Part shown: piece after piece, positions 384-14,907 of the stretch
Numbering within the stretch: the first letter of the stretch is position 1
How the letters are laid out: every line of letters starts with the position of its first letter
From: a virus
Taxonomy: Duplodnaviria > Heunggongvirae > Uroviricota > Caudoviricetes
DNA: 19,746 bases
Strand: one strand, 5' to 3'
Virus record (IMG/VR): IMGVR_UViG_2671180921_000033
Coordinates: 1 to 19,746 of that record
Position numbers and translations under genes: made by a program
The notes under the pieces: generated by a model
What the model saw: only the letters and a program-made list of their open reading frames with translations
What the model was told of the DNA's origin: nothing
Database searches by the model: none

Positions 384-458
<75 letters not shown>

Positions 459-461
459 ATA

Positions 462-537
<76 letters not shown>

Positions 538-2099: not shown

Positions 2100-2260
2100 A
2101 ACGACCTCGCGTTTCGATAATTTTTACCTCACCACCGTCAGGTTCCAATCATCGGGTGGCGAACTGTGCAGGGTTGGAACTACCGGTCGAAACATCCGGC
2201 GCACCTTTCGGTGCCCCCACACAGTCCACCATAAATCGCGAATGTGACTGTGCTTAGCGC

Positions 2261-2283
2261 ATAAAAAAACCGCCAGCGCGGTT
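2261..2283 (-). terminator. tR'-like intrinsic terminator downstream of the late promoter
   Basis: Minus strand AACCGC-GCTG-GCGGTT followed by TTTTTTTA, about 75 nt downstream of the candidate PR' start. Confidence 0.6.
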
Positions 2284-2343
2284 ATGCACCGTTTCGATAT
2301 CCGGGGTTCCAATCCCGACGCCAGATTTTGCTGACGCGTGAGG

Positions 2344-2373
2344 AATATAGCCCCGGACAATGTGTCTGGTCAA
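2344..2373 (-). promoter_or_regulatory. PR'-like late promoter (candidate Q-utilisation region) immediately downstream of the Q gene
   Basis: Minus strand TTGACC - 17 nt - CTATAT starts 5 nt after the Q stop codon. The position is as in lambdoid PR'/qut/tR' modules. Confidence 0.45.
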
Positions 2374-4188: not shown

Positions 4189-4467
4189 TTACCTCCAGAT
4201 CCGTTGCTGGAATGTGCGGGACGGACGCGGTGGGCGCTCGGAGTACGGCAGCCTGACGGAGATTATCCAGTGTCGGAAGTCAAGACTGAGGTCTTTCCTG
4301 ACCTCGCGTCCGCGCCTGCGATAACACTGAATCAGCCACTCGGCCTGTTCTTCAGTGCATGGTGGGTGTTGGTACCAGTCGGTTTTAAATGCGTGAAAAC
4401 GCCGTCCGTGCATGCTGGCAAAGACGGCTGAATTATCAGGATTGTGTAGTCTGGAATTTTGCGCCAT
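4189..4467 (-). CDS. Hypothetical nin-region protein (92 aa)
   Basis: Intact ORF, co-oriented with and separated by 1 nt from the DUF968 gene. No family recognised. Confidence 0.4.
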   Translation of the reverse strand: MAQNSRLHNPDNSAVFASMHGRRFHAFKTDWYQHPPCTEEQAEWLIQCYRRRGREVRKDLSLDFRHWIISVRLPYSERPPRPSRTFQQRIWR

Positions 4468-4587
4468 CGGTTGTCTCTGCTGGCGCAGCAGGTGCCAGTT
4501 GTTCAGACTGGCGTGACAGATTATAACTCATAAAGAATAAAAATGACAAAATCTGCCAAAAAATAAAAATACGAAAAACAAGTTCTG

Positions 4588-4920
4588 TTACGACACCTTC
4601 CTGAAAATTGCCAGCGGTGTCATACCATAGGAAGTTCCTCTCCTCCCAATCATTTCCCGAATACCTTCAAGCATATAATCTATTGCAGATCTGATTTCGT
4701 TAGAAGGAATTTCTGGCTCTGAAACAGTCTCGTCACTTATATCCGGGAGCGCATCTATAACACCGATGACATACCATTCACCACGTATTCTTGAACCATA
4801 CTTTAATGCAAGATTTCCCACATCCAAAGCTAAATCATCAGCCTTGACCGACATCCAGAATATATTTTCTTGATCATCAAGAAGCTCTATCTGTGTAGAG
4901 AACGGGAGTAAAGAAAACAT
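4588..4920 (-). CDS. Hypothetical protein (110 aa), third gene of an AT-rich 3-gene cassette
   Basis: ORF starts 13 nt after the stop of the upstream gene. Acidic protein (MFSLLPFSTQIELLDDQENIFWMSVKADDLALDVGNL...). No family recognised. Confidence 0.5.
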   Translation of the reverse strand: MFSLLPFSTQIELLDDQENIFWMSVKADDLALDVGNLALKYGSRIRGEWYVIGVIDALPDISDETVSEPEIPSNEIRSAIDYMLEGIREMIGRRGTSYGMTPLAIFRKVS

Positions 4921-4933
4921 GTTAGCAGCAATT

Positions 4934-5416
4934 TTAGTATGATAAATTTCTTCTTGAATGTTTTTTTTTCTGATTTGGTGATTTAGTCTGCTTTAGCTCT
5001 TTTCGTTTTGCATCTTTATACATAGGAAAAACATCATGAGCCATTTTCACATCAAATAATTTGATATGCCCTTTTACCATCACCAGACTTCCAATTTCTG
5101 CATTTTCTAAGCTCGTTGCCACCAAGCCTTGTTCGTGCAACTTATCAAAAAAATTTAATGGTAAAGACCATGATGAGTCAAAATGCCGCTCTTGCGTTCT
5201 TGCAAAAGAATCACCCGCATTTTTCCTGGCATTAAATAATGAAACGCCACCTTTAAGTTCATTTAATGAATGCTCAGAACTGGACGAGATTTGTTTTACA
5301 GCATTCAATACTCCCGATGGAAATAATTGCGCAGTGAAGTAACCTACGCGCTCTTTGTCAAGATAAAGGTAATCAAATAGTGAATCTACAGCTTGACAAT
5401 CTTGATCCATTGGCAT
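4934..5416 (-). CDS. Hypothetical protein (about 160 aa), second gene of the AT-rich 3-gene cassette
   Basis: Start ATGCCAATGG preceded by SD AAAGAGGTG, overlapping the upstream small ORF by 44 nt. Lys-rich C-terminal tail. No family recognised. Confidence 0.5.
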   Translation of the reverse strand: MPMDQDCQAVDSLFDYLYLDKERVGYFTAQLFPSGVLNAVKQISSSSEHSLNELKGGVSLFNARKNAGDSFARTQERHFDSSWSLPLNFFDKLHEQGLVATSLENAEIGSLVMVKGHIKLFDVKMAHDVFPMYKDAKRKELKQTKSPNQKKKHSRRNLSY

Positions 5417-5552
5417 GCACCTCTTTGATCCTTGCTTTTTCCTCAGCAATTTTTCTTTGCTTTTCTTCGATTTCATCATACATCAATTGCATTTCAGCGA
5501 TGTCGAACGGCTTTGAACCACTTTTAAGCGATCTCACCAGTTTGCGGATCAT
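5373..5552 (-). CDS. Small hypothetical protein (59 aa), first gene of the AT-rich 3-gene cassette
   Basis: ATG at 5552 preceded by SD AGAGGGGA. Translation MIRKLVRSLKSGSKPFDIAEMQLMYDEIEEKQRKIAEEKARIKEV. Below the ORF-track length cutoff. Confidence 0.35.
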   Translation of the reverse strand: MIRKLVRSLKSGSKPFDIAEMQLMYDEIEEKQRKIAEEKARIKEVHANGSRLSSCRFTI

Positions 5553-5692
5553 TGCGTATCCCCTCTTAAATATCGTTCAAATTATGTTCAAACAAATTCT
5601 CAAACACAACAATGTGATACATCAATGTTTGGGTGCGTTGAGGATGCCTGACACATCAGAGGTGGCGAGGGATTTCTCCCCCGCCAGGTCTC

Positions 5693-5848
5693 TTACTCCT
5701 CAGGTTCGTAAGCTGTGAAGACAGCGACCTCCGTCTGGCCGGTTCGGATTCGTACCTCGCAGAGGTCTTTCCTCGTTACCAGTGCCGTCACAATGACGGT
5801 TAAACAGATGACGATCAGGGCGATTAACATCGCCTTTTGCTGCTTCAT
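5693..5848 (-). CDS. hok: Hok/Gef-family type I toxin
   Basis: Translation MKQQKAMLIALIVICLTVIVTALVTRKDLCEVRIRTGQTEVAVFTAYEPEE (51 aa) has the Hok signature: TM helix then RK-LCE-R-G-EVAAF. SD AAGGAGAAG precedes the ATG. Confidence 0.8.
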   Translation of the reverse strand: MKQQKAMLIALIVICLTVIVTALVTRKDLCEVRIRTGQTEVAVFTAYEPEE

Positions 5849-5894
5849 AGCCTGCTTCTCCTTGCCTTTCGGCACGTAAGAGGCTAACATCCAT
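5700..5894 (-). CDS. mok-like overlapping reading frame (translational coupler for hok)
   Basis: 64-codon frame starting at ATG 5894 and overlapping hok almost entirely, as in hok/mok/sok loci. Start choice within the 107-codon ORF-track frame is uncertain. Confidence 0.35.
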   Translation of the reverse strand: MDVSLLRAERQGEAGYEAAKGDVNRPDRHLFNRHCDGTGNEERPLRGTNPNRPDGGRCLHSLRT

Positions 5895-5965
5895 ATGTCT
5901 AGCATGAAATTGGCCTAAGTTTAATATTAAACGTCTTGCGGGACGCGTAATGTTAACTGGGCTTT
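5895..5965 (+). ncRNA. Possible Sok-like antisense RNA (approximate coordinates)
   Basis: Candidate plus-strand promoter TTGCCT - 17 nt - TAACAT (5862..5890) facing into the hok/mok leader. Ends not defined; inferred from hok/sok architecture. Confidence 0.2.
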
Positions 5966-6245
5966 TCTCTATCTGCCGTTGGTGTTCATGCCCGAGGCAG
6001 ATAGCCTCAAGCACACGCAGCAATTTTACTTAACTATTTTTCCGAAAAATTAATTATTACTAATGCATAGTTTATAAATCACACGATGATATTATAAATC
6101 TAGTGTAAGGGAACATTTAAGTTAAGAATCACATTTTACTAGCCAAAAACATAAAACAGATCTCTTAATAATAAGCAGCTTTTATATAAAAACCACGATG
6201 TGTTTTCATAATAATATGCAGTACCAGCTACTCAGCAATATGAGG

Positions 6246-6764
6246 TTATTCAGTCAAGCTTTTGCGCCCGTACGCACTTCTCAAACTTGCACATGTTTCT
6301 CTAATCCTAACAATTTGCATACAATCAGGTCTTAGAGGTCGGTTGTGAACATCACTATCATATGTCATGGCTTGGCGTAATTCCTTAAACAATTTTGCCT
6401 TATATTTTTCACCACCGGCCCTTTCAATTTCTTTAGCGATAGTAGTTAAACTCTTAACCTCCCTACTCATTTTTGCTAACGCCAGTGTAGGTTCTTTATT
6501 ATTATCTTCAGCCCAGAACTCTAAGGCAAAATCCTCAAGCAACTCCAGTTTTTGTCTAAACTCACCGATCCATTCATTATGAGCATCTTTAATAGCATCT
6601 CCTCTACTTTTTGTGGTTTGGAGATAAGCAATATATGCCGTAATCCCCCATCCAACTAAAACTAAAAACCAAGTTACATACTGATTTTCATCTTTAAACA
6701 AAGAAAAAAACTTACACCAAAAGTCTGCACTCCAAGTACAGACCTGGATACTTGAATTAGCCAT
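6246..6764 (-). CDS. Single-pass membrane protein (172 aa), fourth gene of the STAS/GHKL cassette
   Basis: Hydrophobic helix WFLVLVGWGITAYIAYL near the N-terminus, followed by a charged helical region. Its start overlaps the upstream gene stop as ATGGCTAA. Confidence 0.55.
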   Translation of the reverse strand: MANSSIQVCTWSADFWCKFFSLFKDENQYVTWFLVLVGWGITAYIAYLQTTKSRGDAIKDAHNEWIGEFRQKLELLEDFALEFWAEDNNKEPTLALAKMSREVKSLTTIAKEIERAGGEKYKAKLFKELRQAMTYDSDVHNRPLRPDCMQIVRIRETCASLRSAYGRKSLTE

Positions 6765-7071
6765 GAGATACCTTTATAGCGTCCTCGATATATTCATTTA
6801 TCTCGTCAATTAACTCAGGTTCTTCTTCTGAGATAAATTTAATCCCTTTAACCTTATCAGGACTCACGCCACGCCTAATCAATCCGCCAAAGCACTCCTC
6901 CAAGAAAGAAGAACCATACCCCTCCGTTCCATCAAGGTCTATTGTTAGATCTGGTGAATGTTTAAGCTCTCTTTCTACCCACTCACGAAACTCCTCACCA
7001 GAAGCGGGCCCCAATCTTTTAAAACGAGGTCCTGGGCAAGGATAACGACTGGCTACTTTTATAATTTTCAT
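6757..7071 (-). CDS. Small STAS-like (DUF4325-like) protein, 104 aa
   Basis: ATG at 7071, 1 nt after the GHKL gene stop. Segment DLTIDLDGTEGYGSSFLEECFGGLIRRG resembles the STAS-like core of anti-sigma-antagonist-type proteins. The domain call is by eye. Confidence 0.45.
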   Translation of the reverse strand: MKIIKVASRYPCPGPRFKRLGPASGEEFREWVERELKHSPDLTIDLDGTEGYGSSFLEECFGGLIRRGVSPDKVKGIKFISEEEPELIDEINEYIEDAIKVSHG

Positions 7072-7072
7072 A

Positions 7073-7552
7073 CTACTCAGTTTCCACCTCACAAGGAATT
7101 GTCCATTCAATTATAGTACCATTAACAGAGCTTTTGTAATCTCTAAGCACTTCGTTAATAATGCCAGTTTTCCCTTTGTAAATATAGCGCCCTTTTGATG
7201 AAAAAATCCCCATAAAACCATCACCTATTGAATCGATTACCGATTTGATATCATTCAAGCCTTTACCTCGGTTCAGCTCCCCAGTCCTCGTTTCCTGAAG
7301 TAACGTGGAAGCCTTTATATAAGTAGAATCCTTTACATTTGCTAATGGAACTCTAAGTTTTTTGAAGATGTTCATTAGCACACTTACACCTTGTGTTTTA
7401 GGCAATGTTGAAGGTATTCCCACTCCTTTATCACATATTACCACTGTAAGATTTTTGTCATGTATGCCAGCAAAGGTCCACCACTTAGCTGTTTCGTCAT
7501 CTTCCGTATGCATTAAATCATCAACATAAGCATGCTCGACAGAATTAGACAT
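7073..7552 (-). CDS. GHKL-family ATPase, anti-sigma-factor/serine-kinase-like (159 aa)
   Basis: Bergerat-fold motifs in order: N-box NSVEHAY, G1 VVICDKGVGIP, G2 RGKGLNDI, G3 NGTIIEW. Size similar to RsbW/SpoIIAB-type kinases. Confidence 0.65.
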   Translation of the reverse strand: MSNSVEHAYVDDLMHTEDDETAKWWTFAGIHDKNLTVVICDKGVGIPSTLPKTQGVSVLMNIFKKLRVPLANVKDSTYIKASTLLQETRTGELNRGKGLNDIKSVIDSIGDGFMGIFSSKGRYIYKGKTGIINEVLRDYKSSVNGTIIEWTIPCEVETE

Positions 7553-7556
7553 GGCC

Positions 7557-8240
7557 TCAGTAAAGCCACGGTATAATTTTTTTTGATGATTTTCTTTCTA
7601 ACTCTTTTTTTATTTCCACCATCATTTCTTTTGCTAAAAGAGGCTCAGAACAAGAACCTGATGTATATTTCCAAAAAGTCACATCATCATAACTTTCAGT
7701 TTCTCTTTTAGGTTTCCTTAATAGATCATAGAAACCGACTTGATTCAAAATGCTTTCAATTTTCTTGTCTTTCGGATGTGAAAACCCTATGGCATTTACT
7801 CCAAATTCACTTTTCTTAATAAGCACATCAACTTCAGCGAGAAAAGATAACATAGCAGCTGCACTTATATATTTAGTTGAAGAAAAATCTATATAAACAC
7901 GATTATTCTTCAACACGCAATCGCGTAAATTATTTAAAAATTTATTCATGATTTCAAAATCACGATCGTTGTAATAATTAATAGATATCGGAGCAGAAAA
8001 AACCACCCTTTTATTACTTGTTGTCAACTTTTTCTTCGAGACTCGTAGCTTACGAGTGCGTTTGTAATATTCCAGTTTTCTCTTCGCATTTTCTACTCCT
8101 TCCCAATCCGTGCTTTTCAGAGAATTAAATATCCCCCTCTTCAGTTTCGAAACTTGCCCGCGATAGTTTAGTTTTTGAACTTTTCTTCTTTTTTGCAGAT
8201 TCATAAATATTTTCACATTTGATAACATCGCAGATATCAT
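7557..8240 (-). CDS. Protein with a basic N-terminal region and a STAS-like domain (227 aa), first gene of the cassette
   Basis: Lys/Arg-rich N-terminus (KRRKVQKLNYRGQVSKLKRG...KRTRKLRVSKKKL), then RVYIDFSSTKYISAAAMLSFLAEVDVL...NAIGFSHPKDKKIESILNQVGFYDLL, which resembles a STAS/anti-sigma-antagonist fold. No clear SD, so the start is uncertain. Confidence 0.5.
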   Translation of the reverse strand: MISAMLSNVKIFMNLQKRRKVQKLNYRGQVSKLKRGIFNSLKSTDWEGVENAKRKLEYYKRTRKLRVSKKKLTTSNKRVVFSAPISINYYNDRDFEIMNKFLNNLRDCVLKNNRVYIDFSSTKYISAAAMLSFLAEVDVLIKKSEFGVNAIGFSHPKDKKIESILNQVGFYDLLRKPKRETESYDDVTFWKYTSGSCSEPLLAKEMMVEIKKELERKSSKKIIPWLY

Positions 8241-14655: not shown

Positions 14656-14715
14656 GCATCCGCACCTCATAAAACGGGTGTCGGGCGTGGAAACCCGATG
14701 TTCACTAACGCGCAT

Positions 14716-14739
14716 AACCGCGCTCAGGCGGTTTTTTTA
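14716..14739 (+). terminator. tR'-like intrinsic terminator, second copy
   Basis: AACCGC-GCTCAG-GCGGTT followed by TTTTTTTA; near-identical to the minus-strand terminator at 2261..2283. Confidence 0.6.
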
Positions 14740-14907
14740 TGCGTAATGCACAGCCACATTCAGATTATGGTGGGACGTGCAGGGCAGCCGCAAGGCTGGC
14801 CGGGTTCGTTAGTGACCGGTATTTCCACCCCTGTACGTCTCACCACCCTTATGGTCGTGGAAAACCTTGGTGGTGAGTTAATCAAATTCACTAACGAGGC
14901 TGCTATC

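What the first reader, a model, noticed from the sequence alone, without database searches (positions are those of the whole stretch)
4588..5552. Uncharacterised three-gene cassette with overlapping starts next to hok in the AT-rich island
Three minus-strand ORFs (59, about 160 and 110 aa) are coupled by a 44-nt overlap and a 13-nt gap, the first two with good SD sequences. Composition is AT-rich relative to the flanking phage genes and none matches a family I recognise. The position (nin region, beside a type I TA and the STAS/GHKL cassette) is typical of accessory defence or toxin-antitoxin cargo.
Basis: partly seen in the sequence, partly recalled or inferred. Interest (0 to 1): 0.55.

Follow-up and report, generated by a model that had tools for sequence, protein, structure and literature searches.

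The report
Frameshifted two-gene prophage cargo module
The "three-gene cassette" is really two genes, a 59-residue protein and a DUF6414-type protein whose gene is split here by one extra A in a run of A's; the pair belongs to a widespread uncharacterised module that temperate phages usually carry next to their repressor, so it is a candidate phage-exclusion system.

Summary
The three minus-strand ORFs exist at the stated coordinates, but the cassette has two genes, not three. ORF2 (4934-5410) and ORF3 (4588-4920) are the N- and C-terminal parts of one ~273-aa DUF6414-family gene. It is split by a +1 frameshift in a poly(A) run: A9 at 4961-4969, against A8 or A6GA in intact relatives. Six independent assemblies carry the same A9 allele, so it is an inherited mutation and not a read error.

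The real unit is the 59-aa gene plus the 273-aa gene, with a conserved 38-nt overlap. The small gene is found just upstream, in the same relative frame, in 51 of 52 viral contigs and 35 of 39 other loci. These come from Proteobacteria, Bacteroidota, Acidobacteriota and Binatia. Clostridial phages have the same layout with a divergent small protein. The small protein ends in a conserved tail, G-[AS]-R-x-T-K-H-R-F-[TR]-[IL].

In 34 of 50 viral loci the module lies directly downstream of a CI-type repressor, the rexAB position of lambda. Here it sits in a variable slot beside hokD.

No ClpB-like Dodola partner, PADLOC hit, solved-fold match or RexA homology was found. My best reading is a lysogen-expressed exclusion or toxin-antitoxin-like module, uncharacterised as a family and probably inactive in this window.

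The parts
5373..5552 (-). Small gene (59 aa, pI 9.6). It is predicted to be a short helix plus a long helix (residues 18-49) followed by an unstructured conserved C-terminal tail (NGSRLSSCRFTI here). It is intact in the window.
   Evidence: ORF list. phrog_29688 match over the full length, E 6e-17. Homologues directly upstream of the large gene in 51/52 viral and 35/39 other loci. Structure model.
5560..5567 (-). Shine-Dalgarno sequence AAGAGGGG of the small gene, 7 nt before its ATG at 5552.
   Evidence: Read directly from the sequence.
4588..5410 (-). DUF6414-family gene, disrupted. Removing one A from the run restores a 273-aa reading frame that keeps every family-invariant residue.
   Evidence: Alignment to intact E. 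coli orthologues. In-silico repair. phrog_9699 matched by both halves. Pfam DUF6414 for the orthologues.
5418..5423 (-). Shine-Dalgarno sequence GAGGTG of the large gene. It lies inside the small gene (its K-E-V/E codons), 7 nt before the ATG at 5410.
   Evidence: Sequence. The same arrangement, GAGGAG, is present in relatives.
5373..5410 (-). 38-nt dual-coding overlap. The conserved tail of the small protein is read in frame 0. The first 12 codons of the large protein are read in frame +1.
   Evidence: The same overlap and frame relation recur across phyla. In 56 distinct variants the small-protein tail is better conserved than large-protein residues 1-9.
4934..5410 (-). N-terminal fragment as encoded in the window: 149 native residues plus 9 out-of-frame residues (HSRRNLSY), then a stop.
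4961..4969 (-). A9 homopolymer, the site of the +1 insertion. Intact relatives have A8 (strain A19) or A6GA (ETEC1703, RM10740).
   Evidence: The same A9 is present in six independent assemblies, L015-L020.
4588..4920 (-). C-terminal part of the large gene, listed as a 110-aa ORF from an internal Met with no recognisable SD. It carries 15 of the 21 invariant residues, including the C-terminal GRxxxSYGMTPLxIFR motif.

Best explanation
The locus is one copy of a conserved two-gene prophage cargo module.

Anatomy (shown). Gene 1 encodes a ~60-aa basic protein: a long helix followed by a conserved C-terminal tail, consensus G-[AS]-R-x-T-K-H-R-F-[TR]-[IL]-stop. Gene 2 encodes a ~275-aa acidic soluble protein of the DUF6414 superfamily with its own conserved C-terminal motif, GRxxxSYGxTPLxIFR. 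Gene 2 starts 38 nt before the stop of gene 1, in the +1 frame, and its ribosome-binding site lies inside gene 1.

Expression (inferred). This layout should couple the two translationally and fix their ratio.

Function (inferred). The family sits mostly just downstream of, and co-oriented with, the CI-type repressor of temperate phages, or in other moron slots. I therefore infer that it is expressed in the lysogen and acts as a phage-exclusion (abortive-infection or toxin-antitoxin-like) pair. In this reading the large protein is the effector or sensor, and the small protein is its obligate partner, most likely holding it in check or adapting it through the conserved tail.

State in this window (shown, with an inferred consequence). 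Gene 2 carries a +1 insertion in a lysine-codon A-run (A8 to A9). Normal decoding therefore yields only a 158-aa truncated product that lacks 15 of the 21 invariant residues. The module is most likely inactive or strongly attenuated in this lineage.
For: Two genes, not three:
- ORF2 and ORF3 match positions 1-149 and 164-268 of phrog_9699.
- Six E. coli genomes have a single 273-274-aa 'DUF6414 family protein' at ~94-95% DNA identity.
- The only disruption is A9 against A8 or A6GA, and removing one A gives a complete 273-aa protein.
- Of 79 homologous loci, 77 have an uninterrupted large ORF.

Real mutation: the A9 allele occurs in six separately sequenced assemblies.

Obligate pairing:
- The small ORF lies upstream in the same relative frame in 35/39 loci from genomes and phages and in 51/52 viral contigs; the one exception is cut by a contig end.
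- The loci were retrieved with motifs of the large protein only.
- Pairing persists down to 25-30% identity of the large protein and into Clostridium phages.
- In the dual-coded stretch the small-protein tail has lower entropy than residues 1-9 of the large protein. Those residues are also disordered in the model. The small protein is therefore under selection of its own.

Lysogen-expressed cargo:
- The nearest upstream ORF of 85 aa or more is an HTH_3 repressor in 34/50 viral loci. It carries Peptidase_S24 in 23 and Phage_CI_repr in 20.
- The Rac-like, lambdoid and Clostridium HM T examples show the same strand and position as lambda rexAB. That site is a known hotspot holding the abortive-infection systems RexAB and BstA (PMC8585504).
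- Other copies lie in a P2-like prophage between gpD and the repressor/ogr region, next to integrases, among tail or lysis genes, and in an Enterobacter island with a Shedu-type SduA_C gene.
- In this window the slot between hokD and the 92-aa ORF is variable cargo space.
- There are essentially no plasmid copies.

Link to a known defence protein: Pfam DUF6414 is the domain reported for one component of the Dodola system (bioRxiv 10.1101/2024.10.26.620412).
Against: - No experiment or paper addresses this family. The defence role rests on position and on a weak domain link.
- PADLOC models, including those for Dodola, give no hit to the intact protein even at E<=10.
- Known defence genes are not strikingly enriched among the 103 flanking ORFs of the genomic loci; there are only a few single hits.
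- The fold has no significant match in the PDB or BFVD, so no biochemical activity can be assigned.
- The window copy is not next to a repressor. It lies in the early-right (nin) region, and no good sigma-70 promoter was found directly upstream of it, so expression in the lysogen is not shown here.
- Which partner is toxic, if either, is unknown.
Confidence: 0.55

Rival explanations
1. The pair is a prophage-stabilising toxin-antitoxin (addiction) module rather than an anti-phage system. The small protein would be a labile antitoxin and the large protein a toxin, and loss of the prophage would kill the cell, as with the neighbouring hok/sok.
For: The architecture fits: a small gene comes first, overlapping and coupled to a larger gene. 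The same slot holds a 59-aa ORF plus a Doc-family toxin in strain EC42405. The module lies next to hok/sok. Inactivation of the larger gene by frameshift is a common fate of toxins.
Against: The small protein has no DNA-binding or known antitoxin domain. The large protein matches no toxin family. The module is essentially absent from 72,556 plasmid records, where addiction modules abound. Its preferred position downstream of the repressor is typical of exclusion genes. The two roles are not mutually exclusive.
Confidence: 0.2
2. The window allele is still functional. Either RNA-polymerase slippage on the A9 run restores the frame in a fraction of transcripts, acting as an attenuated or phase-variable switch, or the two half-proteins are both made and reassemble.
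For: Runs of nine A or T are the length at which transcriptional slippage becomes significant in many bacteria, and disrupted ORFs can be rescued this way (PMC1088944). A run of 11 A's rescues tssM in Citrobacter (PMC4256274). Apart from the extra A the gene keeps every invariant residue. The allele persists in six assemblies. The ATG of ORF3 lies 13 nt after the stop of ORF2, so reinitiation is conceivable. The break falls in the predicted helical hairpin between two folded halves.
Against: Only this lineage has the split; 77 of 79 homologous loci have one uninterrupted ORF and close relatives have A8 or A6GA. The arrangement is therefore not a conserved recoding device. ORF3 has no Shine-Dalgarno sequence. 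Slippage at A9 usually rescues a minority of transcripts. No expression data exist.
Confidence: 0.12
3. The module serves the phage's own life cycle, for example by tuning the lysis-lysogeny decision, induction or replication, rather than acting on competitors or on the host.
For: It is tightly linked to the immunity region in most phage contigs. It is found almost only in temperate-phage contexts.
Against: It occupies many unrelated positions: after the repressor, next to the integrase, among tail genes, between holin and endolysin, in the nin region and in a P2-like prophage. It is absent from most related phages (6 of 4,624 matching E. coli genomes hold it). That pattern fits dispensable cargo, not a core regulator. 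It also tolerates a frameshift in this lineage.
Confidence: 0.08
4. One reading: three independent, translationally coupled genes.
For: Three ORFs with start codons are present.
Against: Both downstream ORFs map to consecutive parts of one family profile and of one gene in relatives. One nucleotide explains the split. No homologous locus has a three-ORF layout.
Confidence: 0.02
5. The frameshift is a sequencing or assembly error in a homopolymer, and the gene is intact in the organism.
For: Homopolymer length errors are common with some sequencing platforms. The difference is a single A in a run of nine.
Against: The identical A9 run is found in six assemblies from different accessions, including two assemblies made directly from public read sets.
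Confidence: 0.03

Closest known systems
Dodola anti-phage system: a DUF6414 protein plus a ClpB-like ATPase
   Same: The large protein belongs to the same Pfam superfamily, DUF6414 (PF19952; 32-35 bits for intact orthologues). Both are two-gene systems of unknown mechanism. Dodola was reported to protect Bacillus subtilis against phage SPP1 (PMC11514479; bioRxiv 10.1101/2024.10.26.620412).
   Different: No ClpB-like or AAA+ partner lies next to any of roughly 130 loci examined. The partner is instead a ~60-aa helical protein with a conserved tail. PADLOC models do not recognise the large protein. The module is prophage cargo rather than a chromosomal island system.
Lambda RexAB and Salmonella BstA: abortive-infection genes downstream of the cI repressor
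   Same: The genomic position and orientation match in most phage copies: directly after the CI-type repressor and on the same strand (PMC8585504). The large protein is similar in size to RexA (273 against 279 aa).
   Different: There is no sequence relationship to RexA (hhalign probability 0.14%). Neither partner has a membrane segment, unlike RexB. No solved structure gives a significant fold match. The window copy is in the nin region, not beside the repressor.
Type II toxin-antitoxin pairs, such as the Doc-family pair in the same hokD-adjacent slot of E. coli EC42405
   Same: A small upstream gene overlaps a larger downstream gene, and the pair is mobile cargo in the same slot.
   Different: There is no recognisable antitoxin DNA-binding domain and no known toxin fold. 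The overlap is unusually long (38 nt), dual-coding and conserved across phyla.
Genes rescued by transcriptional slippage at A/T runs, such as Citrobacter tssM, IS-element transposases and Thermus dnaX
   Same: A run of nine A's lies exactly at the point where the two reading frames must be joined (PMC1088944, PMC4256274).
   Different: In those cases the run and the two-frame layout are conserved among homologues. Here they are confined to one lineage, and relatives are in frame.

Membership tests
Pfam DUF6414 (PF19952) | Whole-protein score at or above the curated gathering score (25 bits) | tested here: met
   Intact orthologues at ~93% protein identity score 32.1 and 35.2 bits. Most family members carry the precomputed PF19952 label. 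The window's N-terminal fragment alone scores 21.8 bits, below the cut-off, and the C-terminal fragment does not hit.
Dodola defence system | DUF6414 component recognised by the defence-system HMMs (PADLOC-DB 2.0) | tested here: not met
   No PADLOC family hit for two intact orthologues at E<=10 or for the window fragments at E<=1.
Dodola defence system | Adjacent ClpB-like ATPase partner gene | tested here: not met
   None is present in the window. None was found among the flanking ORFs of 27 genomic loci, 52 viral loci or the individually inspected loci. The AAA hits seen were one FtsH-like gene and a non-adjacent, non-conserved AAA gene in two Serratia prophages.
Dodola defence system | Protection against phage when expressed | not testable with these tools
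   Needs a plaque assay.
Lambda RexAB-type exclusion | Located downstream of, and co-oriented with, the prophage repressor | tested here: inconclusive
   Met for the family: 34/50 viral loci have an HTH_3 repressor as the nearest upstream ORF. Not met for the window copy, which lies between hokD and DUF968 in the nin region.
Lambda RexAB-type exclusion | Homology of the large protein to RexA | tested here: not met
Lambda RexAB-type exclusion | Membrane-protein partner (RexB-like) | tested here: not met
   The maximum 19-residue hydropathy of the small protein is -0.03 and that of the large protein is 0.93. Neither has a transmembrane segment.
Type II toxin-antitoxin | Small antitoxin gene immediately upstream of, and coupled to, the toxin gene | tested here: met
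   The 59-aa gene overlaps the large gene by 38 nt, and the arrangement is conserved.
Type II toxin-antitoxin | Components belong to known toxin and antitoxin superfamilies | tested here: not met
   There are no Pfam, NCBIfam or PADLOC toxin or antitoxin hits. The small protein is a helix plus a tail, without a recognisable DNA-binding fold.
Type II toxin-antitoxin | Toxicity of one partner neutralised by the other | not testable with these tools
   Needs expression experiments.
Programmed frameshift or slippage gene | Slippery run and two-frame layout conserved among homologues | tested here: not met
   77 of 79 homologous loci have one uninterrupted ORF. Close relatives have A8 or A6GA in frame.

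The most novel reading that the evidence does not exclude
The small-protein plus DUF6414-like pair is a distinct, unnamed and very widespread anti-phage (abortive-infection) system of temperate phages. It would be a 'ClpB-less' relative of Dodola in which a ~60-aa protein with a conserved C-terminal tail, dual-coded with the start of the effector gene, controls an effector of a fold not yet seen in solved structures. It would be expressed from the repressor operon, as rexAB is.
Probability: 0.4. Interest if true: 0.7.

Novelty: new variant of a known kind. Interest (0 to 1): 0.5.

Why it matters
The window copy is a broken gene and of little interest in itself. The family behind it is worth attention for several reasons.
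- A profile search found 1,354 clusters (at 50% identity) at E<=0.001 and 467 at E<=1e-30.
- The two genes are almost invariably paired, with a dual-coding overlap kept across bacterial phyla.
- The module prefers the most highly expressed spot of a prophage.
- There is no literature, no defence-database hit and no solved-structure relative.

If it is a defence system, it adds a compact, easily testable two-gene module to the prophage immunity repertoire. It would also give a second, simpler context in which to study the DUF6414 domain of Dodola, whose mechanism is unknown. The case also shows that homopolymer frameshifts can make a single gene look like a coupled gene pair when ORFs are read from one sequence.

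Tried and rejected
- PADLOC on the fragments, on intact orthologues and on neighbours: nothing for the module.
- NCBIfam: only noise.
- Fold searches of the AlphaFold model (pLDDT 77, pTM 0.72):
  - Foldseek against the PDB and BFVD gave nothing at E<=0.001.
  - The AFDB libraries were unavailable.
- Profile against PDB sequences: noise only.
- RexA homology: rejected.
- A second homologue search with a 150-sequence profile did not reach further. A search seeded with the Clostridium phage protein recovered clostridial members with the same two-gene layout, not Dodola-type loci. The sequence path from this family to bona fide Dodola proteins was therefore not traced.
- tblastn of a small-protein homologue (Enterobacter, L004) against phage records found nothing, probably because the query is short and of low complexity.
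- Literature searches by domain, accession and PHROG number found no study of this family.
- A +1 ribosomal frameshift fusing the small and large ORFs was considered and set aside. The large ORF has its own SD and ATG at a conserved position, and the small protein's tail beyond any possible shift site is conserved as protein.
- The promoter scan found no convincing sigma-70 site directly upstream of the small gene.

Full report
**1. The observation**

The ORF list and the minus-strand sequence confirm three consecutive minus-strand ORFs:
- 5373-5552, 59 aa.
- 4934-5479, 181 aa from the first ATG. Internal ATGs lie at 5416 and 5410.
- 4588-4920, 110 aa.

The gap between the second and third ORF is 13 nt.

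GC content falls to 0.35-0.38 across the cassette, against 0.50-0.56 on the DUF968 side. The upstream neighbour is hok (PF01848) with a full-length sok match (RF01794). The description is therefore accurate as a description of ORFs.

**2. Two genes, not three**

- Against PHROGs, ORF2 matches positions 1-149 and ORF3 positions 164-268 of the same 270-position family, phrog_9699.
- ORF2 also gives a sub-threshold Pfam DUF6414 hit.
- A megablast search of complete E. coli genomes found only 6 of 4,624 matching genomes that cover the cassette, at ~94-95% identity.
- In those genomes the annotation is hokD, a 59-aa hypothetical protein, one 273-274-aa 'DUF6414 family protein', a ~90-aa hypothetical protein, DUF968 and RusA.
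- The three-way DNA alignment shows a single length difference inside the coding region that explains the split. The window has GAAAAAAAAAC (A9, 4961-4969). Strain A19 has A8, and ETEC1703 and RM10740 have A6GA.
- Deleting one A in silico gives a 273-aa protein that retains all family-invariant residues.
- As encoded, the window yields 149 native residues plus 9 aberrant ones. This product lacks 15 of the 21 invariant positions, including the C-terminal GRxxxSYGMTPLxIFR motif.
- The 110-aa 'ORF3' starts at an internal methionine and has no ribosome-binding site.

**3. A real mutation**

The exact 110-aa product is called in six assemblies from different accessions, including two assemblies built directly from public read sets. 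All six carry the same A9 run. A one-off homopolymer miscall is therefore unlikely.

The split is lineage-specific. Of 79 homologous loci, 77 have an uninterrupted large ORF.

A9 is a length at which RNA-polymerase slippage is known to matter in bacteria (PMC1088944; PMC4256274). Low-level rescue cannot be excluded, but nothing suggests that it is a designed feature.

**4. The real unit and its conservation**

The large protein has about 40 close clusters at 90% identity, all 250-315 aa. A profile search over 1.84 billion representatives found 1,354 proteins at E<=0.001 and 467 at E<=1e-30.

In every context inspected, a 58-63-aa ORF lies directly upstream, and in most it overlaps the large ORF by 38 nt. 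The contexts were:
- an Enterobacter island;
- Rac-like prophages;
- Methylomagnum, where the annotated start leaves a short gap;
- a P2-like prophage;
- Serratia lambdoid prophages.

I then collected loci using motifs of the large protein only: 29 from species-representative genomes and 52 from viral contigs.
- The small ORF was found in the same relative frame (the large ORF is +1) in 35 of 39 genome and phage loci.
- With an HMM of the small protein, it was found in 51 of 52 viral loci. The exception is truncated by the contig end.
- Hosts include Enterobacterales, Neisseriales, Xanthomonadales, Alphaproteobacteria, Bacteroidota, Acidobacteriota and Binatia.
- Clostridial phages and prophages keep the layout (40-46-nt overlap), but the small protein's tail is divergent in the one translated (phage HM T).

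The small protein is predicted to be a long helix followed by a free tail. Its last 11 residues are the best conserved part, G-[AS]-R-x-T-K-H-R-F-[TR]-[IL].

In the dual-coded 38 nt, that tail has lower per-site entropy than residues 1-9 of the large protein. Those residues are also disordered in the structure model. From residue 10 onward (D-S-[LV]-[YF]-D) the large protein is conserved as well.

The Shine-Dalgarno sequence of the large gene (GAGGTG or GAGGAG) is formed by conserved Lys-Glu-Glu codons of the small gene, 7 nt before the ATG at 5410. The true overlap is therefore 38 nt, and the two cistrons are set up for coupled translation.

**5. Where the module lives**

- Among the 50 viral loci with an upstream neighbour, the nearest ORF of 85 aa or more has HTH_3 in 34, Peptidase_S24 in 23 and Phage_CI_repr in 20. 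YdaT/YdaS (cro and cII-like) genes lie just beyond it.
- Individual loci show the module on the repressor's strand, between the repressor and the early-left genes (kilR, ydaE, recET). In Clostridium phage HM T it lies after the repressor-like HMT_7.
- This is the rexAB position of lambda. It is a recognised hotspot that also holds the abortive-infection gene bstA, and it is among the most highly transcribed regions of a prophage (PMC8585504).
- Other copies sit beside integrases, among tail genes, between holin and endolysin, in a P2-like prophage between gpD and the repressor/ogr region, and in an Enterobacter island with SduA_C (Shedu) and PemK-like genes.
- In the window and its six E. coli relatives it fills a slot between hokD and a 92-aa ORF. 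That slot is empty in most E. coli and holds a 59-aa ORF plus a Doc-family toxin in EC42405.
- Plasmids essentially lack the module: one hit, in a 5.4-Mb record.

**6. What it is not**

- PADLOC models give no hit.
- No ClpB-like or AAA+ partner is adjacent in any locus (and the individual loci). The locus therefore fails the two testable defining features of Dodola, even though the large protein passes Pfam DUF6414, the domain reported for one Dodola component.
- It is unrelated to RexA, and neither protein has a membrane segment.
- The AlphaFold model (pLDDT 77, pTM 0.72) has a mixed alpha/beta core, a long helical hairpin at residues 121-166, where the frameshift falls, and a disordered loop at 43-74. 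It has no significant match in the PDB or BFVD, and the profile finds no solved relative.

**7. Most likely function**

Shown: a strictly paired, translationally coupled small-plus-large gene module that is temperate-phage cargo, usually in the repressor operon position.

Inferred: it is expressed in lysogens and excludes other phages, or acts as a toxin-antitoxin-like pair. The soluble acidic large protein would be the effector or sensor. The basic small protein would be an obligate partner acting through its conserved tail.

I put about 0.55 on this defence or exclusion reading, about 0.2 on a purely addictive toxin-antitoxin role, and less on a role in the phage's own life cycle. Independently of function, I put about 0.85 on the window copy being non-functional or strongly attenuated, and about 0.12 on meaningful rescue by slippage or fragment complementation.

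**8. Novelty and score**

The window feature itself is ordinary, a frameshifted cargo gene. The family is uncharacterised: no paper mentions it beyond the DUF number. It differs from the one known system that shares its domain.

I rate it a new variant of a known kind (two-gene prophage exclusion or toxin-antitoxin-like cargo) and set interest at 0.5. It is a well-defined, cheap-to-test candidate rather than a demonstrated new mechanism.

Noticed in passing
window 6246-8240 (-): An AT-rich four-ORF cassette lies just upstream of hok: 172 aa, 117 aa with a DUF4325 STAS-like domain, 159 aa and 227 aa. It has no PADLOC hits and no other Pfam hits. In the E. coli relatives L001 and L002, the same side of hokD instead holds a 'sce7726 family' plus 'beta family protein' pair. 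This looks like a second variable cargo slot.
   Followed up: partly
window 2152-2350 (-) and 14662-14850 (+): Rfam finds two isrK plus C4-antisense RNA pairs in opposite orientation about 12 kb apart, plus a c4-a1b1 target match at 2298-2350. These are P1/P7-type antisense immunity elements flanking the early region.
   Followed up: no
window 387-537 (-): Two tRNA genes lie downstream of the Q/late-region end of the window (Rfam RF00005).
   Followed up: no
window 4520-4549 (-): A near-consensus sigma-70 promoter-like site, TTGTCA-18 nt-TATAAT (11 of 12), lies immediately downstream of the module and ahead of the conserved 92-aa ORF (4189-4467) and DUF968. No comparably good site precedes the small gene.
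   Followed up: no
window 5693-6016 (-): The hok/sok type I toxin-antitoxin locus appears complete: HOK_GEF ORF at 5693-5905 and a full-length sok model match at 5843-6016.
   Followed up: partly
L054 2774-3457 (E. coli EC42405): The slot that holds the module in the window carries a 59-aa ORF plus a Doc-family (death-on-curing) toxin in this strain. The 59-aa protein shows no obvious resemblance to the small protein studied here by eye; no comparison was run.
   Followed up: partly
CP125156.1 1194485-1195317 (Klebsiella pneumoniae; a 5.4-Mb record in the plasmid collection): The only 'plasmid' hit to the large protein is in a chromosome-sized record. It comes as two tblastn pieces lying over three annotated hypothetical proteins, so it may be another disrupted copy.
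   Followed up: no
L109 3517-6677 and L110 134-2568 (Clostridium prophages): In clostridial prophages the homologous gene is inserted between the holin and endolysin genes (L109) or just after an amidase gene (L110). In L110 the caller lists the overlapping small ORF (62 aa); in L109 no small ORF was called and I did not check for one. This is a different moron site from the repressor-adjacent one that dominates in Proteobacteria.
   Followed up: partly
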